Below the pieces are notes generated by a model, which was not told the DNA's origin, searched no databases, and saw only the letters and a list, made by a program, of their open reading frames with translations. From Acidaminococcaceae bacterium (GTDB taxonomy: Bacteria > Bacillota > Negativicutes > Acidaminococcales > Acidaminococcaceae), in assembly GCA_045598465.1 (NCBI GenBank), contig JAZLMD010000141.1:1-28457 (forward strand): a stretch of DNA of 28,457 bases. The letters are read 5' to 3'. The position numbers and the translations under genes are program-made. Positions 3,125-19,687 of this stretch are shown here, in pieces; the first letter of the stretch is position 1; the number at the start of each line of letters is the position of its first letter.

Positions 3125-4402
3125 ATGAAGGTTTTGGTTTATGGTGCAGGTATCAGCGGACAGGGGGTGGCTGAGGTTCTGCAAAAAGATGGGAACGATG
3201 TGCTGATATATACCGATGCAATGAATTCCTTTGCTGAAAGTATTGAAGGGGTTGATTTGCTGGTGCTTTCCCCAGGTGTTTCTCCGGAAAAGGAGGAAAT
3301 CCGCTTGGCTCTGAGTAAGGGGATTAAGGTTGTGCCGGAAGTTGAGGTGGCTTTTACACACTATTCGGGCAGAATGGCGGCTATAACAGGCACAAACGGA
3401 AAAACCACCACCACTACTTTGGTGGGGGAAATGCTGAAGACATTGGGAGTGCCTGTGAAAGTGGCGGGCAACATTGGTCTGAGCTTGAGTAAGGAAACGG
3501 AGGGATTGACGGATAATGCCTGGGTGGCGGCGGAACTGAGCAGTTTTCAGTTGGAAATGGTGCAGAATTTTGCCCCAACCATCAGTTGTATTTTGAATTT
3601 GACTCCGGATCATTTGGAACGGCACCATACATTGGAGAATTACTATCGGGCCAAGAAAAATATCTGTTTGCAGCAAAATGAAAAGCAGTTCGCCGTACTG
3701 AATTATGATGATGCCAACATTCGCAGTTGGGCTTATGATTTACGGTGCAGGGTTTGTTATTTCAGCCGGTGCATGGAACTGCCTGAGGGTGCATTTATTC
3801 GGAACGGCAGTTTTGTTGTGGCGTGGGATGGCAAAGAAGAAATCATATGTTCGGTAAAAGATATGAAAATTTTCGGCCCCCATAACGAGGAAAATGTTTT
3901 GGCGGCCATCGCTGTGGCCTATTTGGCAGGATGCCGGGCATCAGATTTGGCTAAGGTAATCAGGGAGTTTAAGTCGGTGGAACATCGTTTGGAATATGTA
4001 CGCACATTGGATGGGGTCAGATACTATAACGATTCAAAGGCCACCAATGCGGATAGTGCGGTGAAAGCGTTGGAATCATTCCCGGAGGGGCATGTGGTTC
4101 TCATTGCGGGAGGACATGACAAGCTGACGGATTTGCACGACCTTATGGGAATGATAAAAAAGAATGTGGATGTTTTGATTTTGCTGGGGGAGGCCAAGAC
4201 AAGGTTTCTGGCTGCTGCTGAAGCGAAGGGAATCAAAAACATCCATTTGGCCGAATCCTATGATGATGCGGTTTTGCTGGCAAGAAAATTTGCCAAGGAG
4301 CCCCAGGTTGTCCTGTTAAGTCCTGCCTGCAGCAGTTACGATATGTTCAGTAGTTTTGAAGAACGGGGAAAGAAATTTAAGGAATTGGTACAAGCATTAT
4401 GA
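3125..4402 (+). CDS. murD: UDP-N-acetylmuramoyl-L-alanine--D-glutamate ligase
   Basis: GAGISG, SPGV, ITGTNGKTTTT, ELSSFQLE, HLERH, YNDSKATN and LSPACSSYDMF. Start moved to ATG 3125 behind AGGAGG. Confidence 0.96.
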   Translation: MKVLVYGAGISGQGVAEVLQKDGNDVLIYTDAMNSFAESIEGVDLLVLSPGVSPEKEEIRLALSKGIKVVPEVEVAFTHYSGRMAAITGTNGKTTTTTLVGEMLKTLGVPVKVAGNIGLSLSKETEGLTDNAWVAAELSSFQLEMVQNFAPTISCILNLTPDHLERHHTLENYYRAKKNICLQQNEKQFAVLNYDDANIRSWAYDLRCRVCYFSRCMELPEGAFIRNGSFVVAWDGKEEIICSVKDMKIFGPHNEENVLAAIAVAYLAGCRASDLAKVIREFKSVEHRLEYVRTLDGVRYYNDSKATNADSAVKALESFPEGHVVLIAGGHDKLTDLHDLMGMIKKNVDVLILLGEAKTRFLAAAEAKGIKNIHLAESYDDAVLLARKFAKEPQVVLLSPACSSYDMFSSFEERGKKFKELVQAL

Positions 4403-6867
4403 AAATTTTGATTAGTGGTGGCGGTACGGGAGGGCATATTTATCCGGCTCTCTCTATTGCAGATGAATTGAAAAAAATAGTTTCTGAGATTGAGATTGTT
4501 TACGTGGGAACGGCAGCAGGGTTGGAACGTAATATTGTGCCACGTTACGGTTATGAAATGCGTTATATTGAGGTGGCCGGATTTCGCAGAAGTTTGAGTT
4601 TTGACACCATCAGAAGCATCTATTTGCTGTACAAAGGGCTGAAGCAGGCGAAGGAACTTATTGCTGCAGAAAAACCTGATTTGGTGATTGGTACCGGCGG
4701 TTATGTTTGCGGGCCTGTGGTTTATCAGGCGGCCAAGGCGGGTATTCCCACTTGCATTCAGGAGCAGAACGCTTTGCCCGGTGTGACCAACAGGATTTTG
4801 GCAAGGATGGTGAATAAAGTTTTGCTTGGTTATGAAGAGGCGGCAAAACATTTCAAGGCCAAGGGTGAGGTGGTGTATACCGGTAATCCTATCCGCGAGG
4901 AAATTTTGTGTCAGAACAGGGAGCGTAGTTATCAGGAGCTGCGCTTAGATCCACAGTTGAAGACAGTTTTGGTTTTTGGCGGCAGCCGTGGCGCCAAGAG
5001 TATCAATAGTGCTATGGTTGATGTGGAATTACAGTTGAGTAAACGCAATGATGTGCAGGTTTTGCATGCAACGGGGGAGACCAATTATACGGATCATATC
5101 AAGGCCTTGGGAAGCAAAGGTGGTGTCAACGGGAATATTCATATTGTTCCGTACTTACATAATATGCCTTCCGCTTTGGCAGTGGCTGATTTTGTTGTTT
5201 GTCGGGCCGGGGCAATCGGCCTGGCGGAAATTATGGCTAAAGGTTTGCCGGCAATTTTGATTCCTTTTCCTTTTGCAACCGGCAATCATCAGGAATTCAA
5301 TGCCAGGGCGTTGGAAAGCAAGGGGGCGGCCAGGGTTATCTTGGACAAGGATTTGAACGGGAAAATTTTGCTTGAGCAAATTAAGGAGTTGCTGGACAGT
5401 CCGGACGTATTGCAAGATATGCATGTGTCCGCTTTGAGGGAAGCGAAACCCATGGCGGGCCGTGATATTGCGGACACGGTAATGGCCTGCCTTTTTGAAG
5501 GATATAAAAAAGTTCATTTTGTAGGGATAGGGGGGGCGGGGATGAGCGCCATTGCCAGCGTCCTGTTGAAGCGTGGTTACAAAGTTCAAGGCAGTGACCT
5601 GAATTCCGGGGAGGTGGTTTCCCGCTTGATCGGTCAGGGGGCGCAAATAAAGATTGGGCATGCCGCCGAGAATATTGAAGGGGCGGATTGCCTGGTTTTG
5701 AGCACTGCCATCCATACTGATAATTCGGAGGTGTTGGCTGCCAAAGAGAAAGGCATACCTGTTTTTCACCGTAGCAATATTTTGAGTTGGCTTGTGAATG
5801 TTAAAGATGGTGTAACCGTGGCCGGGGCACATGGGAAAACTACTGTTACATCCATGCTGGCATTTATTGCGGATAAAGCCGGTATTGGGGCGACTGCCCT
5901 CATAGGCGGGGATGTGGCCCAATTAGGGGGAAATGCGATTACTGGGGATGGAGGTTATGTTATCGCAGAGGCAGACGAGAGCGATGGTTCTTTCCTAAAG
6001 TTCAAGTCCAAAATTGCTGTGGTAACTAATATTGAAGACGATCACTTGGACCACTACGGTACTGAGGAAAATATTTATTGCGCCTTCAAAGAATTTGTGG
6101 CTAATGTTAAAGAGGGCGGCAGAGCAGTACTTTGTGTTGATAATGTTAATGTCAGACGGTTGGTAAATGACCTTGAGGGCGCTTTGCCTGTAGTGACTTA
6201 CGGATTGCACGACGGAGAATATAGGGCTGTTGATATCGAATTCAAGGGTGTGGGAAGTATTTATACCTTGTTGCATGACGGTACGGTGATCGCCCGTGTG
6301 GAACTTTCTGTTCCCGGAATTCATAATGTTCAGAACAGTGTGGGGGCTTTTGCCGCTGCTGCAAGTATGGGTATTTCGGAGGAAACGATTATTGCCGGTT
6401 TGAAGGAATTTGGCGGGGCAAGAAGAAGGTTTGAAACCAAGGCCAGGGTGGATGATATTTGGTTTGTGGATGATTATGCCCATCATCCCACTGAAATCAA
6501 GGCGGTGTTAAAAGCAGCCAGGGAAACCGGCAGCGAGAGGATTGTGGTATGTTTCCAGCCCCATCGCTACACCAGGACAAAATTGCTGATGGGTGAATTC
6601 TTGCATGCCTTCGATGATTGTGATATGCTCGTTATAACTGATGTTTACGCAGCCAGTGAGGAGTCGGTGGAGGGTGGTACCAGCGATGTGTTGGTCCGGA
6701 ACATTAAGGCGGAAACGGGCAAAAATGTTATCCATACACCAACCTATGAAGATGCCTACAACTATTTGAAAAATCAAATCCGGCCGGGGGATTTGGTAAT
6801 GAGCATTGGTGCCGGCAGGGCAGATTTGGTAATTGAACGTTTGGCGGCAGAAAGGAAAAAATTATGA
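4399..6867 (+). CDS. murG/murC: fused MurG (N-acetylglucosaminyl transferase, about aa 1-363) and MurC (L-alanine ligase, about aa 365-822)
   Basis: N-half has GGGTGGHIYP, HEQN-like IQEQNA, GGSRGA and RAGA. C-half has HFVGIGGAGMS, AGAHGKTT, EADESDGSF, DDYAHHPTEI and FQPHRYTRT. No stop codon lies between them. ATGA overlaps with murD and ddl. Confidence 0.95.
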   Translation: MKILISGGGTGGHIYPALSIADELKKIVSEIEIVYVGTAAGLERNIVPRYGYEMRYIEVAGFRRSLSFDTIRSIYLLYKGLKQAKELIAAEKPDLVIGTGGYVCGPVVYQAAKAGIPTCIQEQNALPGVTNRILARMVNKVLLGYEEAAKHFKAKGEVVYTGNPIREEILCQNRERSYQELRLDPQLKTVLVFGGSRGAKSINSAMVDVELQLSKRNDVQVLHATGETNYTDHIKALGSKGGVNGNIHIVPYLHNMPSALAVADFVVCRAGAIGLAEIMAKGLPAILIPFPFATGNHQEFNARALESKGAARVILDKDLNGKILLEQIKELLDSPDVLQDMHVSALREAKPMAGRDIADTVMACLFEGYKKVHFVGIGGAGMSAIASVLLKRGYKVQGSDLNSGEVVSRLIGQGAQIKIGHAAENIEGADCLVLSTAIHTDNSEVLAAKEKGIPVFHRSNILSWLVNVKDGVTVAGAHGKTTVTSMLAFIADKAGIGATALIGGDVAQLGGNAITGDGGYVIAEADESDGSFLKFKSKIAVVTNIEDDHLDHYGTEENIYCAFKEFVANVKEGGRAVLCVDNVNVRRLVNDLEGALPVVTYGLHDGEYRAVDIEFKGVGSIYTLLHDGTVIARVELSVPGIHNVQNSVGAFAAAASMGISEETIIAGLKEFGGARRRFETKARVDDIWFVDDYAHHPTEIKAVLKAARETGSERIVVCFQPHRYTRTKLLMGEFLHAFDDCDMLVITDVYAASEESVEGGTSDVLVRNIKAETGKNVIHTPTYEDAYNYLKNQIRPGDLVMSIGAGRADLVIERLAAERKKL

Positions 6868-12438: not shown

Positions 12439-12921
12439 ATGAAAAAGGTATTGATAGTGCTTGTCGGGATATTTGCTATTGCTTGTAACGTTTGTTTCGC
12501 CGATGCAGCTACTGATGCGGAGAAGAAGGGGCATTTTAGTGTGACAAGTGACCATCGTTCCTTTAATCCCTTTAATGTGAGCTATACGCTCAAGGGGAAT
12601 GTTGTAGCCAAGTTCCCTAATAAGGAGGGTGTTGTTACTGTCAGGGCGGATAAGGGTGTGGCCTATTTCTTTGCCCAGAAGGTGGTTGCCAAGGGTAATG
12701 TTGCTTTGGATTTCAATGGTCTGTATTTGGCTTGCGATGAGGCGATCATACTTCTCAAATCAAAGACGGCTAATCTTTATGGCAATGTGGTTTTCAAATC
12801 TGCCACGGATCATATCACCGCTCCTGAGGGGCGTTATGATTGGCGAAACAGGGTGGCTAATTTCAATAATGCAGTACGTAATGGGGCCGCCCCGGTACCG
12901 ACTTTGGTTTATGAGGTATAG
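12439..12921 (+). CDS. exported OstA/LptA-like beta-jellyroll protein (putative)
   Basis: Signal peptide MKKVLIVLVGIFAIACNVCFA. Repeated LKGNV / AKGNV / LYGNV and RADK / ACDE strand motifs typical of OstA/LptA folds. AAGGAG ribosome-binding site. Confidence 0.65.
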   Translation: MKKVLIVLVGIFAIACNVCFADAATDAEKKGHFSVTSDHRSFNPFNVSYTLKGNVVAKFPNKEGVVTVRADKGVAYFFAQKVVAKGNVALDFNGLYLACDEAIILLKSKTANLYGNVVFKSATDHITAPEGRYDWRNRVANFNNAVRNGAAPVPTLVYEV

Positions 12922-13199: not shown

Positions 13200-16118
13200 A
13201 TGGAACTGAAAATAGGAAATCTATATAGTGGGTTTAAGGTCTTGCGTCGGGAAGTGGTAGATGAACAGGATGCAGTGTGTTACGAGTTGGAGCACTTGCA
13301 ATCCGGGGCCAGGCTTCTGTATGTTGACGCGGAGGACGATAATAAGGTTTTCTGCATTTGTTTTCGCACCCCGGTTTTTGATGATACCGGCGTTGCCCAT
13401 ATCATGGAGCATAGCGTTCTTTGCGGTTCGAGGAAATATCACTTGAAGGAACCTTTTGTGGAATTGGCGAAGGGGTCTTTGAATACGTTTCTGAATGCTA
13501 TGACGTATTCGGATAAAACGGTTTACCCGGTGGCCAGCCGTAATGCCAAGGATTTCGATAATTTGATGGATGTGTATTTGGATGCGGTGTTTCATCCGTT
13601 GATTTATGATAACCCTTACACGTTCGAGCAGGAGGGGTGGCATTACGAGATAGGGACGGTTGAGGATGCTTTAGAGTACAACGGCGTTGTTTATAATGAG
13701 ATGAAGGGGGTATATTCCAATCCTGATTCCTATTTGGATCGGGTGGTGAAGCAGAGTTTGTTTCCGGATAATACCTATCGTTTTGACTCGGGCGGATATC
13801 CGGAGAATATACCGGATTTGAATCAAGAGCAGTTTTTGGCTTTTCACAAAAAATATTACTGTCCGGAGAATGCCAAGATTTATTTATACGGAGATTTGGA
13901 TATTGAGTCGGCTCTAAGGCATATTTCTGAAGGTTATTTGAACGACTATAGACGGACGGATGCCGATGACACCAGGGTGCAGCCCCAGAGAGCATTGATG
14001 AAAACAAAGGATGTTGTGGGAACTTATCCGGAAGTGGAGGGGGCACAAGGCGGCAACAAGGTTTATCACGAGTTGGCCATTGCTCTGAACAGAACTCCCG
14101 ACCGCAAGGATTTAGTGGCTTTGAGGTTGTTGAATGATACCATAATAGATTCCGATTCCGGGCCTTTGAAAAGGGCTCTTATTGAGGCCAAGGTTGCCCA
14201 GAATGTTACCGGTAGTATGGAGATCAGCTTGTTGCAGCCGGTGTTCAGTATCAGGGCGTCAGGTTCAACATTGGAGAGGCGGGAAGATTTTATTTCCATT
14301 GTTTACAGAGAGATGCAAAAGCTGACTCGTGAGGGCATCAATAAGGAATTATTGGAGGGCGGTTTGAATGCGGCGGAATTTAGGTTGCGGGAGAATGAAC
14401 ATGACGGCTACCCTAAGGGATTGATGCTGTGCTTGACGGCGATGGATGAATGGAATTATGAGTATGATCCCATTGAGACATTGCGTTACAGAAAGCTTTT
14501 TAGGGAATTGAGGGAAGGGCTGAAAACTGATTATTACGAAAAACTGATTGAGAACTATCTTTTGGACAATACGCATAAAGTGTTTGTCACCTTGCAGCCG
14601 GAGGCGGGCAGGGTTGAGGAGGAGAAAGCCCGTTTGGAAGAAAAGTTGGCCAGCGTGAAGAAGTCTATGTCTGCAGCTGAAGTTGACAGATGTGTTGCAG
14701 AGTGTAGGGAGTTGCACCGGCGGCAAGGGGCAACGGACAGTCCTGAGGATTTGGCCACCATTCCAATTTTACGGCTTAATGATATCAGGCGCAAGGCAGA
14801 AGATGTTTTTAAGGTTGTTACTGCATCAGGTAGCAATAGATTGATTTATGTCCCACAAAAGACCAACGGGATTGCTTATATGTCCTGGGGATTTGATGTA
14901 ACGAATATTCCAAAAGGAGATTTGCAATATCTTTTCCTGTTGTGTCTGCTTCTTGGTAAGATGGATACAAAGAGTTGTTCATATCAGGATTTGGAAAAAT
15001 TGGGACTGTTGTATACCGGTGGCATGCAGATTTATCCAGAGGTGGTTACCAGTAGGGATGATGCGGACGATTACAAGATTTATGTACGGGTTGCGGGCAA
15101 GGTGCTGGTGGAAAATCTTGACAAGTTTCTGATGCTGATAAGGGAAGTAGTCTGTAGTACGAAGTTTGACGATAAGAAAAGATTTAGGGAAATTGTGGAG
15201 GAAGCGAAGATTTCCATGGACGAAGCATTCTTTACAATTGGTAGGGATGTGGCCGTGAGCAGGTTGCGTTCCTACGTTTCCAAGTCGGCCAGGGTCAGTG
15301 ACTTGTTCAGTAAGAAGCTGTTTATGGATGATTTGTATGAATATTTTGATGCAAAAGCTGATGATGTACTGCAGAAGGTGGAGTTGCTCTGCCGGAAGAC
15401 GTTCGCCAAGGACGGGGTTGTAATGACTTATTCCTGTGATGAAGGCGACAGGGACAAAATTGGTGGTGTTATGCGAGAATTTTTTGATGATTTGCCAGAG
15501 AATGTTCTCGGTGGCGATGAACCTGATGTTCTTGTGATGGACGATACTAATGAGGCGATTACCTGTTCGGGCACAGTTCAATATGTTGTCCTTGGTGGAA
15601 ACTTCTATAGCAAAGGGTTTGATTACACCGGAGCTATGATGGTGCTGAAGAATATTTTAGCCTATGAATATCTTTGGATCAATGTCAGGGTGAGGGGAGG
15701 GGCCTATGGTGCCTTTGCCAGTTTTACGCCTAACGGTTATGTGGATTTCTCCACTTACAGGGATCCTCAGTTGCTCCAATCAATTGAGGTTCTTAGGAAA
15801 ATTCCCAAGTGGGTGAAGGGATTGCAGCTTAGCCGCAGGGAGTTGGACAAATATGTTATAGGAACGATCAGCGGTTTGGACCGACCTGTTACGAAGCAGG
15901 GCAGAATGCGGCTGGCTGAGGAAAGGTTTTTAAAAAATGTGGAAATGGATACAATGCAGAAAGTGAGAAGTCAGATTTTGGATGTGACGCTTGATGATTT
16001 GCATGCTTTGGCAGATGTAATCGAGAAAACTCTTGAGGATTCTTGCTATTGTGTTGTAGGCGGAAAGGAGGTTATTATTTCTAATTCAGATTTGTTTGAA
16101 AGAATTTTTGAAAATTAG
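13200..16118 (+). CDS. insulinase family (M16C, presequence-protease-like) zinc metallopeptidase
   Basis: Inverted zincin motif HIMEH in GVAHIMEHSVLCGSRKY. FLNAMTYSDKTVYP, GVVYNEMKG, VRVRGGAYG and YRDP. 972 aa. Confidence 0.92.
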   Translation: MELKIGNLYSGFKVLRREVVDEQDAVCYELEHLQSGARLLYVDAEDDNKVFCICFRTPVFDDTGVAHIMEHSVLCGSRKYHLKEPFVELAKGSLNTFLNAMTYSDKTVYPVASRNAKDFDNLMDVYLDAVFHPLIYDNPYTFEQEGWHYEIGTVEDALEYNGVVYNEMKGVYSNPDSYLDRVVKQSLFPDNTYRFDSGGYPENIPDLNQEQFLAFHKKYYCPENAKIYLYGDLDIESALRHISEGYLNDYRRTDADDTRVQPQRALMKTKDVVGTYPEVEGAQGGNKVYHELAIALNRTPDRKDLVALRLLNDTIIDSDSGPLKRALIEAKVAQNVTGSMEISLLQPVFSIRASGSTLERREDFISIVYREMQKLTREGINKELLEGGLNAAEFRLRENEHDGYPKGLMLCLTAMDEWNYEYDPIETLRYRKLFRELREGLKTDYYEKLIENYLLDNTHKVFVTLQPEAGRVEEEKARLEEKLASVKKSMSAAEVDRCVAECRELHRRQGATDSPEDLATIPILRLNDIRRKAEDVFKVVTASGSNRLIYVPQKTNGIAYMSWGFDVTNIPKGDLQYLFLLCLLLGKMDTKSCSYQDLEKLGLLYTGGMQIYPEVVTSRDDADDYKIYVRVAGKVLVENLDKFLMLIREVVCSTKFDDKKRFREIVEEAKISMDEAFFTIGRDVAVSRLRSYVSKSARVSDLFSKKLFMDDLYEYFDAKADDVLQKVELLCRKTFAKDGVVMTYSCDEGDRDKIGGVMREFFDDLPENVLGGDEPDVLVMDDTNEAITCSGTVQYVVLGGNFYSKGFDYTGAMMVLKNILAYEYLWINVRVRGGAYGAFASFTPNGYVDFSTYRDPQLLQSIEVLRKIPKWVKGLQLSRRELDKYVIGTISGLDRPVTKQGRMRLAEERFLKNVEMDTMQKVRSQILDVTLDDLHALADVIEKTLEDSCYCVVGGKEVIISNSDLFERIFEN

Positions 16119-16181
16119 TCAGAAAGCAAAATTTGTTATTGTTTTCTCGTGCATTGAAAATGCGGAAAGGAGTTTGTTGTT

Positions 16182-19076
16182 ATGGATGATTTATTGTTGA
16201 AAGTATTCAATTTTTTGGTGATACCGGAATCGTCGTTGTCGATTGTATTTCTGGTTTTGTTTGCTGTATGTTTTTTGTACGGCATTTTGAAAGTGGTGGA
16301 TTGTAGGCGTTCGCTGCAGGATTTTCACGACAATGGTTTGGCCAACTATCAGCAGGAGATGTACCGGCTTAACCAAAGGCAGTTTATGAACAAGTTCATT
16401 TCCGCTTTGTCTGCAAAAGAGGTCAAGATAACTGATATGCCCAATATTTTTGTGAGTATTGGCATTTTAGGTACGTTCTTGGGACTGGGTGTTGCTATTC
16501 ATGGTGCAGCCGATTTGTTGAATGCTGACAGGGTTGATTTGATGCAACTCAATTCAGTTCTGAGCGTTATTGCCTTCAAATTCCAGACAAGTGTTTGGGG
16601 AACTTGTTTTTCGTTGATTTTCCAAAAATTTATTTTGGAACCTTATTTTGTTTATCGGCAGAAGCAGTTGGGTGAGGTGGAAACTGCAATTTATGCGGAT
16701 GCCGTCAACCAAAGCACCGCTATGCAGTGGCAGTTGGCAGAATTGCAAGGTATGCATGCGGCTTTGACAAGTGAAAGCGACACCATGCGTAACAGTGAGC
16801 GAAATATTGCAGATGCGTTGCATCATCAAAGTAAGTCCTTGAGCGAAATGGCTGAGAAAATGAATCAAAGCCGGCTCGAGGACAATGCCAGGCAACTGAA
16901 GGAATTTAGAGCAGTTGCGGATAATATGCTTACTCAGCAAATGGCTTTCACGGATACGTTGAATGCTCAAAATCTTGTTAATAACAACAAGATTACAACG
17001 GAACTTTTGAATAAGATTGATGAATTGGTGGGGGACGAAAGAAGGAATAACCTGCTGTCAATCAAGGAACTTTTATCCAAGATTGGCACTCTTGTTGGGG
17101 ATTCTAACGACAGCAATATGAAGATTGCCGCCGAGTTGTTAGAGAAAGTTAATTCCATGGTAGATGACGTTAATGAATCCAATCTGTCAACCATCCAGGA
17201 GCTTTTGAAAAAAATCAGTGACTTAATCAGTCAATCATCCAGCAGCAATGCCCGTCTGGGACAAGATTTGCTTACGCATGTCACCCAGTTGGTTGACGAC
17301 ACCAGTAAGAACAATAATTTGAGTTTGCGGGATTTGTTGCGTAATGTGACTCAGTTGGTGGGAGATACCAATATCAGTAATGCACAGATTTCCAGGGAAG
17401 TGTTGGATAAAGTTGGTGAATTGATTTCAGAGCAGGGCACCACCAATGATGTTATGATCAAGGATTTGCTTGGTAAGGTGAGTGTATTAGTTAATGACAG
17501 CAATACGAGTAATGCGGCCATGACGAAGGACTTGTTGGAGAAGGTCGATACTTTGGTAAGTGACAGCAATACGAGTAATGCAGCCATGACGAAGGACTTG
17601 TTGGAGAAGGTCAATACTTTGGTAAGTGACAGTAATATGAGTAATGCGGTCATGACCAAGGAGTTGGTTGAGAAAGTAGATACATTGGTTAGCGACAGCA
17701 GTATGGCCAATGCGGCACTGACTAAGGAGTTGGTTGAGAAGGTAGATACATTGGTTAGCGACAGCAGTATGGCCAATGCGGCACTGACTAAGGAGTTGGT
17801 TGAAAAGGTAGATACACTGGTTAGTGACAGCAATATGGCCAATGTCAAAATGACACAAGAGTTGTTGGATGATGTTAGGAATTTGGTTGGAGCCGCTCAG
17901 GAAAGTTCTGTTGAAAGTGGCCAGGCAGTTATGGAAAATGTGGCCCAGCAACTTGTGCAACAGAAAGGTGAAATTCAGGAAATGTTGGCGCTTCAGAACG
18001 CAACCAATGAGAGGCTGAAGATTCAACAGGAAGTTCTGTTGGAGAATGCTGAGGTTAACAACAGGGAAAATATGGAGAGAAATGCGGAAAATATTAAAGA
18101 AGTGCTTGGTAAAGTTACGACTTTGATTGATGAATCCAAATCTTCCAATGCAGAGATGACCAAGGAATTGCTTTCCAACGTTAAGGCCTTTGTGGGAGAC
18201 GCTCAGGACTATGCCACCGAGAATGGTAGGTCTATTATGGCTAATGTGGCCGATCAGCTCATGCAACAGAAAAACGAGATTCAGGAAATGTTGGCTCGTC
18301 AGAACGAAATTAACGAGAAGTTGAAGGTTCAACAGGAAGTTTTGTTGGAGAATGCCGAGATTAACAGCAAAGAAAATATCGAGAAGAATACGGAAAACAT
18401 CAGACAGGTGCTTGAAAAGGTAGGTACCTTGATTGATGAATCAAAGTCTGCCCACATCGAAACTACTAAAGAGTTATTGGATAATGTTAAAGCATTGGTA
18501 GGCGATGCTCAGGATTATGCCAATAAGAATGGCAAATCGATTCTTGGTGGTGTTGCTGAGCAATTGACTAAGCAAAGAAAGCATATGGAAGAAATGATTA
18601 GTAAGCAAAGTCAATTGAATGAGGCTCTTTTGGGTGATGTTGCGGAAACAGAAGCTGCAAATGCCAAGAATATGCGTGAGGGTATTGTTCAGCAGATGGA
18701 AGAATATAAGCAGTATGCAAGGCAGTTGGCTGAAGAACAGAAACAAACGCAAGAAGCTCTGGAGAATCGGTTGCAGGTGCTTACTAATGATATTGACAAA
18801 AATAGCGACACAAGCAATGAAAATATTACGGAGTTGCGACGCGCAATTGATGTTCTTCAGAAGGCAATTGATACCAATAGCAATATATTGGAAGGTATTG
18901 TCGATAACTTTGTCAATAAGCAGAGGGATATGGACGAATTGCGTCGCAGTGAAATTAAAGCGATGGCGGAATCCTTTGGCACGCTTTTCAATCAGGAGAG
19001 TCAAAATATGGCGACTTGGAGAAAGATGAAAGAGGATATCAGTCGCAGCAGGAAGAAAAAAAATAGTGAACAGTAA
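16182..19076 (+). CDS. ZorA-like MotA/TolQ/ExbB-family membrane protein with an approximately 800-aa helical repeat tail
   Basis: Three hydrophobic segments (about aa 19-39, 87-106, 129-152), including PNIFVSIGILGTFLGL and FQTSVWG, which match the MotA/ZorA TM2/TM3 pattern. A coiled-coil/repeat tail follows. Directly upstream of a MotB-like gene. Confidence 0.8.
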   Translation: MDDLLLKVFNFLVIPESSLSIVFLVLFAVCFLYGILKVVDCRRSLQDFHDNGLANYQQEMYRLNQRQFMNKFISALSAKEVKITDMPNIFVSIGILGTFLGLGVAIHGAADLLNADRVDLMQLNSVLSVIAFKFQTSVWGTCFSLIFQKFILEPYFVYRQKQLGEVETAIYADAVNQSTAMQWQLAELQGMHAALTSESDTMRNSERNIADALHHQSKSLSEMAEKMNQSRLEDNARQLKEFRAVADNMLTQQMAFTDTLNAQNLVNNNKITTELLNKIDELVGDERRNNLLSIKELLSKIGTLVGDSNDSNMKIAAELLEKVNSMVDDVNESNLSTIQELLKKISDLISQSSSSNARLGQDLLTHVTQLVDDTSKNNNLSLRDLLRNVTQLVGDTNISNAQISREVLDKVGELISEQGTTNDVMIKDLLGKVSVLVNDSNTSNAAMTKDLLEKVDTLVSDSNTSNAAMTKDLLEKVNTLVSDSNMSNAVMTKELVEKVDTLVSDSSMANAALTKELVEKVDTLVSDSSMANAALTKELVEKVDTLVSDSNMANVKMTQELLDDVRNLVGAAQESSVESGQAVMENVAQQLVQQKGEIQEMLALQNATNERLKIQQEVLLENAEVNNRENMERNAENIKEVLGKVTTLIDESKSSNAEMTKELLSNVKAFVGDAQDYATENGRSIMANVADQLMQQKNEIQEMLARQNEINEKLKVQQEVLLENAEINSKENIEKNTENIRQVLEKVGTLIDESKSAHIETTKELLDNVKALVGDAQDYANKNGKSILGGVAEQLTKQRKHMEEMISKQSQLNEALLGDVAETEAANAKNMREGIVQQMEEYKQYARQLAEEQKQTQEALENRLQVLTNDIDKNSDTSNENITELRRAIDVLQKAIDTNSNILEGIVDNFVNKQRDMDELRRSEIKAMAESFGTLFNQESQNMATWRKMKEDISRSRKKKNSEQ
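16983..17906 (+). repeat. 14 tandem 66-bp (22-aa) coding repeats in the ZorA-like tail
   Basis: Consensus like NAAMTKELLEKVDTLVSDSNxS. Units at 17511/17577 and 17709/17775 each differ at 4 of 66 bases by my manual alignment. Outer units are more diverged. Confidence 0.92.
17841..18608 (+). repeat. about 2.5 copies of a 306-bp (102-aa) higher-order repeat in the ZorA-like tail
   Basis: Units start at 17841 (NVKMTQELL), 18147 (NAEMTKELL) and 18453 (HIETTKELL, partial). The first two share EIQEMLA, QQEVLLENAE and TLIDESKS. Confidence 0.88.
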
Positions 19077-19087
19077 GAGGTGGTATT

Positions 19088-19687
19088 ATGGGAACGAAGC
19101 GAAATCCATGGATATCTATAGCGGACCTCTTGAGTAGTGTTGTTCTGGTGGTTCTTTTGCTGTTTGTTATGGCGGCTATTGCACCTAAGTATACCCAGGA
19201 ACTGGCCCGTAATAGAATAATGAGCAAGTTCGATAGTGATTTGAACAAGTATGAATCCAGTGGACAGTTGAAAGTTAGGATTGATGAAAGCATTTTGGAA
19301 TTTACTGCTGTAACTTTTGAGCAGGGCAGTGCAAGTTTGAGTAAAAAGACCAATAATTTGGTCAAAGACATTGCAGTGAAATTGAAGGACTATATGCAGG
19401 AACATCCTAAGATGGAGATTTTGATTGAGGGTCATACAGATCCGGCTGTAGTTAAATCAGTTAGCAATGTTGGCGGTTATTTTGCAGATAATATTCAATT
19501 GTCAAGTTTGCGTGCCGCTAATGTTCGTAAGGCACTCTTGAAACACATGGGGGATGATTATGCCAAGAGGATTGGTGTTGCCGGTTATGGTGAAACCAGA
19601 TTGAAGAACATTAAGGACAGATATTCTGCAGAGAACCGTCGCGTTGAAATTAGAATTTTGTGGGATGGTAAAGATAAGGGCAAATGA
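19088..19687 (+). CDS. ZorB/MotB-like protein: TM helix with conserved Asp plus OmpA-like peptidoglycan-binding domain
   Basis: N-terminal PWISIADLLSS (Asp13). OmpA-like motifs IEGHTD, NIQLSSLRAANV, GYGE and NRRVEI. Confidence 0.85.
   Translation: MGTKRNPWISIADLLSSVVLVVLLLFVMAAIAPKYTQELARNRIMSKFDSDLNKYESSGQLKVRIDESILEFTAVTFEQGSASLSKKTNNLVKDIAVKLKDYMQEHPKMEILIEGHTDPAVVKSVSNVGGYFADNIQLSSLRAANVRKALLKHMGDDYAKRIGVAGYGETRLKNIKDRYSAENRRVEIRILWDGKDKGK

What the first reader, a model, noticed from the sequence alone, without database searches (positions are those of the whole stretch)
16182..19687. Effector-less ZorAB-like ion-driven motor wired into a housekeeping gene run
Seen: a three-TM MotA-type protein (GILGTFLGL with Thr98, FQTS with Ser137) with a tail of about 800 aa, followed 11 bp later by a MotB-type protein (WISIAD, OmpA-like domain). 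Established: this architecture is the ZorA5B2 membrane sensor of Zorya anti-phage systems, which normally sit beside effectors (ZorC/ZorD, ZorE or ZorF/ZorG). None of these is present here, and there are no flagellar or TonB genes or mobility genes. The neighbours are an M16C peptidase and rnj-ftsK-rodZ. Inference: this is either a new Zorya-like subtype using different or distant effectors, or a domesticated peptidoglycan-anchored motor with an envelope, division or sensing role.
Basis: partly seen in the sequence, partly recalled or inferred. Interest (0 to 1): 0.8.

Follow-up and report, generated by a model that had tools for sequence, protein, structure and literature searches.

The report
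Orphan Zorya-like membrane motor pair
Two adjacent genes in an uncultured gut-type Negativicutes bacterium encode a cell-wall-anchored, ion-driven membrane motor distantly related to the Zorya anti-phage motor. It has an unusually long inner tail and no partner genes, although its relatives in Selenomonas-type bacteria always sit in front of an undescribed Hsp70-like ATPase gene set that this lineage has apparently lost.

Summary
Window 16182-19076 encodes a 964-aa protein with three membrane helices and a tail of about 810 aa. Eleven bases later, 19088-19687 encodes a 199-aa MotB/ZorB-type protein with an OmpA-like domain. Thr98, Ser137 and Asp13 align with EcZorA Thr147 and Ser184 and with the ZorB channel Asp.

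The pair is only a distant ZorAB relative. It scores 46 and 60 bits on PADLOC Zor models and 32-34 bits against NCBIfam cut-offs of 100-190. It belongs to a separate family that I found almost only in Negativicutes.

No ZorC, D, E, F or G was found in this MAG (71% complete) or in congeners that are 96-98% complete.

The new result concerns the relatives. In all ten Selenomonadaceae-type loci examined, and in one outgroup locus, the A-B pair is followed by an unannotated gene set built around an Hsp70-fold ATPase. The window belongs to one of two clades that lack this set, most likely through loss.

The orphan pair is not decaying. It is kept behind the M16C peptidase gene in five diverged genomes, evolves as slowly as RNase J, and keeps a clade-specific tail tip.

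The function is unknown. It is most likely a stand-alone envelope sensor or motor. This scan has already noted over 100 "orphan ZorAB" pairs on other DNA.

The parts
16182..19076 (+). Gene A: 964-aa ZorA-like motor subunit, with three TM helices and a cytoplasmic tail of about 810 aa
   Evidence: ORF and translation. PADLOC ZorA1 6.8e-13, 46 bits, covering only aa 85-148. The family profile hits ZorA 8vvn_C at 1.8e-6. The AF2 model is all-helical with pLDDT 82, and the top Foldseek hits are ZorA, then TolQ, ExbB and PomA.
16164..16172 (+). Shine-Dalgarno sequence GGAAAGGAG, 9 nt before the ATG of gene A
   Evidence: Read from the sequence.
16230..16301 (+). TM1 (about aa 17-40), preceded by the family-invariant Pro15-Glu16
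   Evidence: Hydropathy scan, alignments A1 and A4, AF2 helix 18-59.
16437..16511 (+). TM2 (about aa 86-110) with invariant Pro87 and Thr98 (codon 16473-16475)
   Evidence: Invariant in 58 sequences. Aligns with EcZorA Pro136 and Thr147.
16539..16631 (+). TM3 (about aa 120-150) with the invariant FKFQ(T)S motif and Ser137 (codon 16590-16592)
   Evidence: Invariant in 58 sequences. Ser137 aligns with EcZorA Ser184.
16968..17891 (+). Array of about 14 tandem 22-aa repeats in the tail (aa 263-570). The youngest copies form a 66-bp x 5.3 array at 17486-17837.
   Evidence: TRF: 66-bp period, 88% matches. Protein autocorrelation 0.54 at period 22. Hydrophobic period 3.66 with no power at 3.5.
17892..18671 (+). 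About 2.6 copies of a 102-aa repeat in the tail (aa 571-830). TRF reports a 306-bp x 1.9 array at 17929-18522.
18729..19073 (+). Tail tip (last ~115 aa), conserved only within the orphan clade and ending in a Lys/Arg-rich tail
   Evidence: By BLAST the tip is 52-54% identical to G004, L017 and L043 and 33% to L045, with no hit to the tips of full-system relatives. By pairwise alignment it is 46-56% identical to G004, L017 and L055. Net charge of the last 30 aa is +3 to +6 in five orphan-clade members.
19075..19083 (+). Shine-Dalgarno sequence AAGAGGTGG for gene B, overlapping the stop codon of A
   Evidence: Read from the sequence.
19088..19687 (+). Gene B: 199-aa ZorB/MotB-like subunit, with an N-terminal TM helix carrying Asp13 (codon 19124-19126) and an OmpA-like peptidoglycan-binding domain (aa ~76-190, 19313-19657)
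   Evidence: Pfam OmpA 7.3e-13. PADLOC ZorB1 4.7e-17, 60 bits. PDB hits to ZorB 8vvi_A at 2.8e-4 and to MotB/PomB domains at about 1e-6. Invariant in 19 family sequences: D13, EGHTDP 114-119, N135, L138-S139, N183-R184-R185.
13200..16118 (+). Upstream M16C (PreP-type) peptidase gene. It is not part of the motor, but it is the conserved left-hand neighbour of the orphan pair in five genomes.
   Evidence: Pfam. M16C-A-B is seen in the window, G001 (L012), G004 (L008), L017 and L055.

Best explanation
The two genes encode a peptidoglycan-anchored, ion-driven motor of the MotAB/ExbBD/ZorAB type, presumably with 5:2 stoichiometry. Its A subunit carries a very long, non-heptad helical tail reaching into the cytoplasm, about 110 nm if scaled from E. 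coli ZorA.

The pair belongs to a distinct ZorAB-like family that I found almost only in Negativicutes. Its ancestral form was coupled to a downstream gene set centred on an Hsp70-fold ATPase. In the window's lineage (Acidaminococcaceae, Phascolarctobacterium-like MAGs) that gene set is absent, most likely lost. The pair has since been inherited vertically behind the M16C peptidase gene under strong purifying selection.

Inferred mechanism. B anchors to the wall through its OmpA-like domain. Ion flow past Asp13, Thr98 and Ser137 turns the A pentamer. The rotating tail, with its clade-specific conserved basic tip, passes an envelope signal to an unlinked and still unknown cytoplasmic target. 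By analogy with Zorya the signal could be phage attack or wall damage.

The architecture, the family relationship, the absence of known effectors and the conservation are shown. Rotation, stoichiometry, the trigger and the target are inferred.
For: Motor identity:
- Zor models are the only PADLOC hits of note.
- The family profile hits solved ZorA structures and places Pro87, Thr98 and Ser137 on EcZorA Pro136, Thr147 and Ser184. Hu et al. (PMC11946911) show these residues form the ion filter around ZorB Asp26.
- The Asp13, EGHTDP and NRR motifs are invariant in 19 B sequences.
- The AF2 model finds ZorA, TolQ, ExbB and PomA and nothing else in the top 41 hits.
- The tail's hydrophobic period is 3.60-3.66, as in type I ZorA of G034, with no heptad signal. 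This fits the right-handed tail bundle reported for EcZorA.

Distinct family:
- NCBIfam ZorA scores are 32-34 bits against cut-offs of 100 and 190.
- The branch to type I ZorAB is about 10 substitutions per site.
- 12 of 401 Negativicutes genomes carry the family. Only 12 loci were found among 185,579 species genomes, 11 of them in Negativicutes.

Lost partners:
- All 10 full loci carry A-B, usually a small ORF, C' and D'. Most of them, where the contig continues, also carry a coiled-coil gene, a radical SAM gene and a gene of about 490 aa.
- D' has an Hsp70 fold (Foldseek 2e-17).
- The outgroup pair L054 also has a D' homologue.
- The orphans form two separate clades in the tree.
- No C', D' or ZorC-G was found in G000, G004 or G001.

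Still functional:
- Both ORFs are intact.
- dN is 0.21 for B and 0.27 for the A motor, against 0.225 for RNase J and 0.44 for M16C, with dS saturated.
- B is 72-76% identical across genomes whose M16C is only 51-68% identical.
- The tail tip is conserved.
- L043 carries a tandem duplicate of the pair.
Against: No experiment or expression data exist for any family member. The 5:2 complex could not be modelled with these tools.

Similarity to ZorA is weak: the profile E-value against E. coli ZorA is 0.07-0.75, and the Foldseek E-value is about 2e-3 with TM about 0.3-0.45. The loop between TM1 and TM2 is only about 47 aa and is all-helical in the model. It therefore appears to lack the beta-hairpin of the EcZorA membrane-proximal domain, and the Ca2+-site region has no aligned counterpart.

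The direction of change (loss rather than gain) rests on one outgroup locus and a poorly resolved base of the tree.

In E. coli, ZorAB alone gives no defence, so a defence role for an orphan pair would need a new output. The window genome is only 71% complete. The searches for C' and D' in the congeners had no positive control.
Confidence: 0.6

Rival explanations
1. The pair has been domesticated for a housekeeping envelope, division or nucleoid role. It would be co-transcribed with rnj-ftsK-rodZ, for example as a wall-anchored tether or ruler whose basic tail tip contacts DNA or the division machinery.
For: All genes from M16C to rodZ lie on one strand with gaps of 11-63 nt, and no convincing terminator follows gene B. 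G004 has the same order. The pair is under strong purifying selection. The tail tip is basic. No mobile or defence genes lie in the window.
Against: The family is rare and patchy. Within the window's own family only genus g1 had it among the genomes sampled (2 of 92). Other genera have M16C without the pair. The downstream neighbours differ in L017 (dprA-topA), L055 (aro operon), L043 and L045. In L055 a 344-nt AT-rich gap separates M16C from A. Tail length varies from 410 to 809 aa among close relatives, which is not what a fixed ruler would show.
Confidence: 0.15
2. The motor works together with the upstream M16C peptidase. For example, the tail might recruit or regulate the peptidase, which would then replace the lost effector.
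For: M16C-A-B is kept in five genomes (window, G001, G004, L017, L055), while the downstream side has three different contexts.
Against: M16C is a core gene present without the pair in other genera. Orphan-clade members L043 and L045 lack M16C beside them. The A-B and M16C identities follow the same order of relatedness, which fits shared vertical descent from one insertion event. L055 has a long promoter-like gap between M16C and A.
Confidence: 0.1
3. The pair is a decaying remnant of the full system with no present function.
For: The partner genes found in relatives are missing. The tail carries young, expanding repeats.
Against: Both ORFs are intact in at least six diverged genomes. dN equals that of RNase J with dS saturated. 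All motor and wall-binding residues are invariant. The tail tip is conserved.
Confidence: 0.05
4. The pair is a canonical Zorya system (type I, II or III) whose effectors lie elsewhere in the genome.
For: The only PADLOC hits are Zor models. The MAG is 29% incomplete.
Against: ZorC (PF15611), ZorD, ZorE, ZorF and ZorG models found nothing in G000, G004 (98% complete) or G001 (96%). The ZorC and ZorD models did find the true type I system in G034. Scores are far below the curated ZorA cut-offs. A genuine type I system in the same bacterial family matches P0001 only at about 1e-6.
Confidence: 0.03

Closest known systems
ZorA-ZorB core of Zorya anti-phage systems (E. coli type I, PDB 8QYD; Shewanella sp. 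ANA-3 type I, 8VVN; PDB 8VVI, chain A deposited as a MotB-like protein and taken here as a ZorB; Hu et al. 2024, PMC11946911; Mariano et al. 2025, PMC11890865)
   Same: Adjacent A-then-B genes. A has three TM helices, with the TM2 Thr and TM3 Ser aligned to EcZorA Thr147 and Ser184 and the kink Pro aligned to Pro136. B has a single TM helix with the channel Asp and an OmpA-like wall-binding domain, and has no separate MotB plug match. The long helical cytoplasmic tail has a non-heptad period of about 3.6-3.66. ZorA is the best sequence and fold match.
   Different: Scores are far below the curated family cut-offs. The TM1-TM2 cytoplasmic loop is about half as long and is modelled as all-helical, so there is no beta-hairpin and no aligned Ca2+ site. 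B is shorter (199 against about 245 aa) with a 13-residue-shorter N-terminus. The tail is about 810 aa against 507 aa in EcZorA and is built from 22-aa and 102-aa tandem repeats. ZorC/D, ZorE and ZorF/G are absent. Relatives carry an Hsp70-fold ATPase set in their place.
ExbB-ExbD and TolQ-TolR 5:2 motors
   Same: Three-TM A subunit with a compact helical cytoplasmic domain. Foldseek places TolQ and ExbB directly after ZorA with similar scores.
   Different: ExbB and TolQ have no long tail. ExbD and TolR lack an OmpA-like domain. Pfam MotA_ExbB does not detect P0001. The genome has its own ordinary ExbB/TolQ-type gene elsewhere.
MotA-MotB and PomA-PomB flagellar stators
   Same: B shares the TM Asp and the OmpA-like domain, with PDB hits to MotB, MotS and PomB at 1e-6 to 1e-4.
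   Different: A has three TM helices, not four, and no FliG-contacting cytoplasmic domain. No flagellar genes lie in the window.
Other 'orphan ZorAB-like' pairs noted by this scan (103 notes in at least 100 genomes)
   Same: An effector-less, conserved, ZorAB-like pair. Several of those notes also found that the orphan is a detached copy of a motor that elsewhere travels with a specific partner gene.
   Different: No look-alike of this protein is in the scan's index. The partner set seen in this family's relatives (Hsp70-fold ATPase, coiled-coil proteins, radical SAM enzyme) is not mentioned in the notes shown.

Membership tests
Zorya system (types I-III) | ZorA-type A subunit recognised by curated family models | tested here: not met
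   NCBIfam antiphage_ZorA_2 scores 34.5 bits against a cut-off of 100, and ZorA_1 scores 32 against 190. PADLOC ZorA1 scores 46 bits over aa 85-148 only, whereas a true type I ZorA of the same bacterial family scores 157 bits.
Zorya system (types I-III) | Ion-filter residues in TM2 (Thr) and TM3 (Ser) of A, and the channel Asp in the TM helix of B | tested here: met
   Thr98 and Ser137 align with EcZorA Thr147 and Ser184 and are invariant in 58 sequences. Asp13 is invariant in 19 B sequences and aligns with the type I ZorB Asp.
Zorya system (types I-III) | Peptidoglycan-binding domain on B | tested here: met
   Pfam OmpA 7.3e-13. The EGHTDP, N135, L138-S139 and NRR motifs are invariant.
Zorya system (types I-III) | Long cytoplasmic helical tail on A | tested here: met
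   The tail is about 810 aa and is helical where modelled. Its hydrophobic period is 3.66, like type I ZorA of G034 at 3.65.
Zorya system (types I-III) | Membrane-proximal cytoplasmic domain with a beta-hairpin and a Ca2+ site (EcZorA Glu86, Glu89) | tested here: inconclusive
   The TM1-TM2 loop is about 47 aa with no strands in the AF2 model. The EcZorA region before residue 113 has no aligned counterpart. This rests on a monomer model only.
Zorya system (types I-III) | Cognate soluble partners in the operon: zorABCD, zorABE or zorGABF | tested here: not met
   The neighbours are M16C and RNase J. PF15611 and the PADLOC ZorD, ZorE, ZorF and ZorG models found nothing in G000, G004 or G001. The ZorF and ZorG models had no positive control.
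Zorya system (types I-III) | A5B2 stoichiometry and protection against phage | not testable with these tools
   Only single-chain structure prediction is offered, and no experimental data exist.
Negativicutes ZorAB-like family (defined here) | N-terminal 175 aa with Pro15-Glu16, the GI..TF.GLG motif in TM2 and the FKFQ.S.WG motif in TM3, followed by a B gene with the NPW..I.DL motif | tested here: met
   Alignments A1 and A4. B N-termini. The family forms a monophyletic group with 100/100 support.
Negativicutes ZorAB-like family (defined here) | Downstream C' and Hsp70-fold D' genes (full form) | tested here: not met
   Absent from the window. Not found in G000, G004, G001 or G049 with the L018 proteins as queries.
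MotA_ExbB (Pfam PF01618) | A match above the gathering threshold | tested here: not met
   P0001 has no PF01618 hit at E <= 0.1. The same model finds a separate gene on contig C166.

The most novel reading that the evidence does not exclude
This family would define a previously undescribed Zorya-like system in which the wall-anchored motor signals through its tail to an Hsp70-fold ATPase module (C', D', coiled-coil proteins, a radical SAM enzyme) and not to nucleases. The window's pair would then be a lineage in which the motor was kept for tens of millions of years after losing that module. It would have been re-wired, through a new conserved basic tail tip on a stalk of about 110 nm with variable length, to a chromosomal or other host target. 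That would make it a stand-alone mechanical link from envelope to cytoplasm and not an immune sensor.
Probability: 0.2. Interest if true: 0.8.

Novelty: new variant of a known kind. Interest (0 to 1): 0.6.

Why it matters
Zorya is the only case so far where a stator-type rotary motor is known to signal into the cytoplasm through a tail. In E. coli the motor is useless without its nucleases.

Here a ZorAB-like motor has been conserved as strongly as RNase J across deeply diverged genomes with no partner gene. This argues that such motors can have an output of their own, or can use unlinked host targets.

The relatives also show that the same type of motor can be coupled to a quite different cytoplasmic module, an Hsp70-fold ATPase with coiled-coil and radical SAM proteins. 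That module also occurs without the motor. This widens the known modularity of Zorya-like systems and points to an unannotated gene set with more than 200 members in gut and rumen-type metagenomes.

The 22-residue repeat stalk, which varies in copy number between close relatives while the tip stays conserved, offers a natural test of whether tail length matters.

Tried and rejected
- Known Zorya effectors elsewhere in the genome were rejected. PF15611 and the PADLOC ZorD, ZorE, ZorF and ZorG models found nothing in G000, G004 or G001.
- Partner genes of the relatives (C', D') relocated in the genome were not found. These searches had no positive control.
- Pfam, NCBIfam and PADLOC annotation of C', D', the small ORF, the coiled-coil proteins and the ~490-aa protein gave nothing useful. 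The exceptions were Fer4_12/Radical_SAM for the 210-aa protein and generic coiled-coil noise. A C' profile against the PDB gave nothing.
- Sequence-only detection of Hsp70 in D' stayed marginal, at E 0.003-0.1. Only the fold comparison was decisive.
- A literature search for a described defence system with an Hsp70-like ATPase, MotA and radical SAM found no paper. A search for 'orphan' or 'standalone' ZorAB found only the PADLOC paper, which discusses orphan single genes in general.
- Promoter and terminator scans around the pair were no better than shuffled sequence and gave no operon boundary.
- dN/dS could not be given as a ratio because dS is saturated.
- G003 (same genus, no match) is uninformative, because its M16C contig ends exactly where the pair would start.

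Full report
OBSERVATION

The window is contig C141 of a 0.997-Mb MAG that is 71% complete, in 182 contigs. On the + strand, 16182-19076 encodes 964 aa (P0001) and 19088-19687 encodes 199 aa (P0002), 11 nt apart. Each has a good Shine-Dalgarno sequence.

P0001 has hydrophobic segments at about aa 17-40 and 86-110. A third membrane helix at 120-150 is clear from the model. After that the protein is a helical tail to residue 964.

P0002 has one N-terminal membrane helix containing Asp13 and a Pfam OmpA domain at 7.3e-13. The neighbours are an M16C peptidase, RNase J, FtsK and RodZ. Upstream lie a dcw cluster and an alanine symporter.

RELATION TO ZorAB

The only defence-model hits are Zor models, and they are weak. 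ZorA1 scores 46 bits and covers only aa 85-148. ZorB1 scores 60 bits. A genuine type I ZorABCD system in another genus of the same bacterial family (G034) scores 157, 222, 161 and 1110 bits on the same library. NCBIfam ZorA models score 32-34 bits against cut-offs of 100 and 190.

A profile of 15 family N-termini hits the solved type I ZorA of Shewanella (8vvn) at 1.8e-6, and E. coli ZorA at 0.07-0.75. In that alignment Pro87, Thr98 and Ser137 fall on EcZorA Pro136, Thr147 and Ser184. Hu et al. identified these residues as the kink proline and the ion filter around ZorB Asp26 (PMC11946911).

Asp13 of B aligns with the Asp of type I ZorB and is invariant in 19 family sequences. So are the EGHTDP, Asn135, Leu138-Ser139 and NRR motifs of the OmpA-like domain.

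An AF2 model of residues 1-300 (58-sequence alignment, pLDDT 82) is all-helical. Its best PDB matches are ZorA (8vvn, 8qyk), then TolQ, ExbB and PomA. The scores are weak, with E from 2e-3 and TM 0.3-0.46.

The tail's hydrophobic periodicity is 3.66 residues with no power at 3.5. This matches type I ZorA of G034 at 3.65 and fits the right-handed bundle described for EcZorA.

The differences from ZorA are as follows:
- The TM1-TM2 loop is only about 47 aa and has no strands.
- The part of EcZorA before residue 113, which holds the Ca2+ site, has no aligned counterpart.
- B is about 45 aa shorter.
- The tail is about 810 aa against 507 aa in EcZorA. Scaled from the 70 nm measured for EcZorA, that is about 110 nm.

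THE TAIL

Residues 263-570 are about 14 tandem 22-aa units. The youngest are visible in the DNA as 66-bp x 5.3 copies with 88% matches. Residues 571-830 are about 2.6 copies of a 102-aa unit.

Tail length varies from 410 to 809 aa among close relatives. The last ~110 aa, however, stay 43-56% identical among the window, G004, L017, L043 and L055, with L045 at 33%. This tip has no detectable similarity to the tips of other family members. It ends in a basic stretch. The architecture is therefore a stalk of variable length with a conserved tip.

THE FAMILY AND ITS CONTEXTS

The N-terminal domain has 91 homologue clusters in the 5.8-billion-protein collection, none with a Pfam domain. It has 46 representative clusters at E <= 1e-30 among 1.84 billion representatives, followed by a tail of more distant relatives.

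Among 401 genomes of the class, 12 have it. Among one genome for each of 185,579 species, only 12 loci were found. These were in Acidaminococcaceae/Phascolarctobacterium MAGs (the window's genus), Selenomonadaceae and Pelosinus, plus one partial hit in Oceanicaulis.

Gene neighbourhoods fall into two classes.

Full form. Ten loci belong here, including Selenomonas massiliensis. The order is:
- A
- B
- usually a small ORF (about 54-87 aa where present)
- C' (377-425 aa)
- D' (885-933 aa)

Most of these loci, where the contig continues, go on with:
- a coiled-coil protein
- a Fer4_12 radical SAM protein of about 210 aa
- a protein of about 490 aa

These loci often lie beside transposases, HTH genes or AAA_15/RloB genes.

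Orphan form. This class has A-B only. It includes:
- the window, G001, G004, L017 and L055, all directly behind M16C but with three different downstream contexts
- L043, a tandem A-B-A2-B2 arrangement
- L045
- four Pelosinus genomes

C' and D' match nothing in Pfam or PADLOC. D' carries the motifs DFGTSST, DLGGGT.DF and GNASKQ. It gives marginal DnaK hits by sequence. Its AF2 model (43 sequences, pLDDT 87, pTM 0.86) matches full-length Hsp70s (DnaK, BiP, Ssb, Hsp110) at E 2e-17 and probability 1.0. D' is therefore an Hsp70-fold ATPase with an extra beta-rich N-terminal domain of about 270 aa.

D' has more than 218 homologue clusters, all unnamed. A distant D' (P0212) sits in a similar gene set without any A-B pair. 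That set has a C'-like protein, D', coiled-coil proteins, a radical SAM protein, a ~484-aa protein and an AAA+ protein. The Hsp70 set is therefore a module in its own right.

DIRECTION OF CHANGE

A tree of the A motor plus B (398 columns, IQ-TREE) gives these results:
- The family is monophyletic and very far from type I ZorAB.
- The window falls in a five-member clade without partners (support 95/100).
- Pelosinus forms a second orphan clade, sister to full systems (support 95/95).

The base of the tree is unresolved. A more distant pair (L054, profile E 6.6e-26) is also followed by a D' homologue with 26% identity over 591 aa, E 2e-39. Two independent losses are thus the simplest reading. 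This rests on one outgroup.

Neither C' nor D' was found in G000, G004, G001 or G049. None of the ZorC, D, E, F or G models found anything there either.

IS THE ORPHAN ALIVE?

Across the window, G004, L017 and L055, M16C is 51-68% identical. B is 72-76% identical and the A motor 60-69%. By Nei-Gojobori, dN is 0.21 for B and 0.27 for the A motor, against 0.225 for RNase J and 0.44 for M16C, with dS saturated throughout. The identities follow the same order for M16C and for A-B, which fits vertical descent from one insertion behind M16C.

Other genera of the family have M16C without the pair. The pair is therefore an old, lineage-specific acquisition that has been kept under strong constraint without its partners.

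MECHANISM

Shown: the architecture, the key residues, the family relationship, the absence of partners and the conservation.

Inferred by analogy with EcZorAB (PMC11946911):
- an A5B2 complex
- anchoring of B to peptidoglycan
- ion flow past Asp13, Thr98 and Ser137 driving rotation of A
- transmission of that signal along the tail

The output is unknown. The conserved clade-specific basic tip argues for a specific target that is not encoded next door.

A housekeeping role with rnj-ftsK-rodZ is unlikely, because that context is not conserved. A link to M16C is possible but is better explained by shared descent. In L055 a 344-nt AT-rich gap separates M16C from A.

COMPARISON AND NOVELTY

The pair works like a ZorAB core but fails the membership tests for any described Zorya type: the curated model scores and the cognate effectors. 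It is best filed as a new variant of a known kind.

The scan has already recorded 103 orphan ZorAB notes in at least 100 genomes, so the general phenomenon is not new to this project. No look-alike of this protein is in that index.

What this case adds:
- the link of the family to an undescribed Hsp70-fold ATPase module
- evidence that the orphan state is derived and long-lived
- the repeat-built stalk with a conserved tip

I found no paper describing such a system.

LIMITS

No multimer model was possible. The MAG is 71% complete. The neighbourhood survey covers about 25 loci and not all homologues.

Noticed in passing
L051:967-12502 and L052 (metagenome contigs ERZ28637036, ERZ27318690): A distant homologue of the Hsp70-fold protein D' (P0212, 36% identity) sits in a 9-gene same-strand set with no A-B motor. 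The order is 215 aa (weakly C'-like), D' 878, 262, coiled-coil 466, radical SAM 199, 484, coiled-coil 247, double AAA+ 857, 227. P0212 is listed on 74 contigs. This looks like an undescribed conserved module.
   Followed up: partly
L054:626-9100 (metagenome contig ERZ23491180): An outgroup ZorAB-like pair (569 aa and 230 aa) is followed by genes of 254, 183, 886 and 271 aa. The 886-aa product is a D' homologue (E 2e-39). A dynamin-family gene lies on the opposite strand just downstream.
   Followed up: partly
L043:8001-13397 (JGI 3300020112): A tandem duplication of the orphan pair, A(818)-B(204)-A2(555)-B2, with the contig ending inside B2. The two A copies differ strongly in tail length.
   Followed up: partly
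L010:2823-10435 (G034) and L011:2477-10084 (G021): Complete canonical type I Zorya operons (ZorA, ZorB, ZorC, ZorD) occur in another genus of the window's bacterial family. Both the classical system and the divergent family therefore exist in Acidaminococcaceae-type genomes.
   Followed up: yes
window 4399-6867: One 822-aa ORF carries both MurG domains (Glyco_transf_28 N and C, aa 3-345) and a complete Mur ligase (aa 371-806).
   Followed up: partly
window 12439-12921: A 160-aa ORF between the alanine symporter and M16C has no Pfam match at E <= 1e-5.
   Followed up: no
L018:5079-6930 and L044:1-1633: Full-form systems lie next to AAA_15/AAA_21 plus RloB genes, SMC_N-type ATPases, a WYL regulator, XRE-type HTH genes or transposases (also L027, L046, L022). 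This is a defence-island-like setting that the window lacks.
   Followed up: no
L042:914-2155 (Oceanicaulis sp. MAG): This was the only hit outside Negativicutes in the species-genome scan. It is a 413-aa ORF on a 2.6-kb contig with 52% identity over the TM2-TM3 core only. It is probably a different ZorA-like lineage.
   Followed up: no
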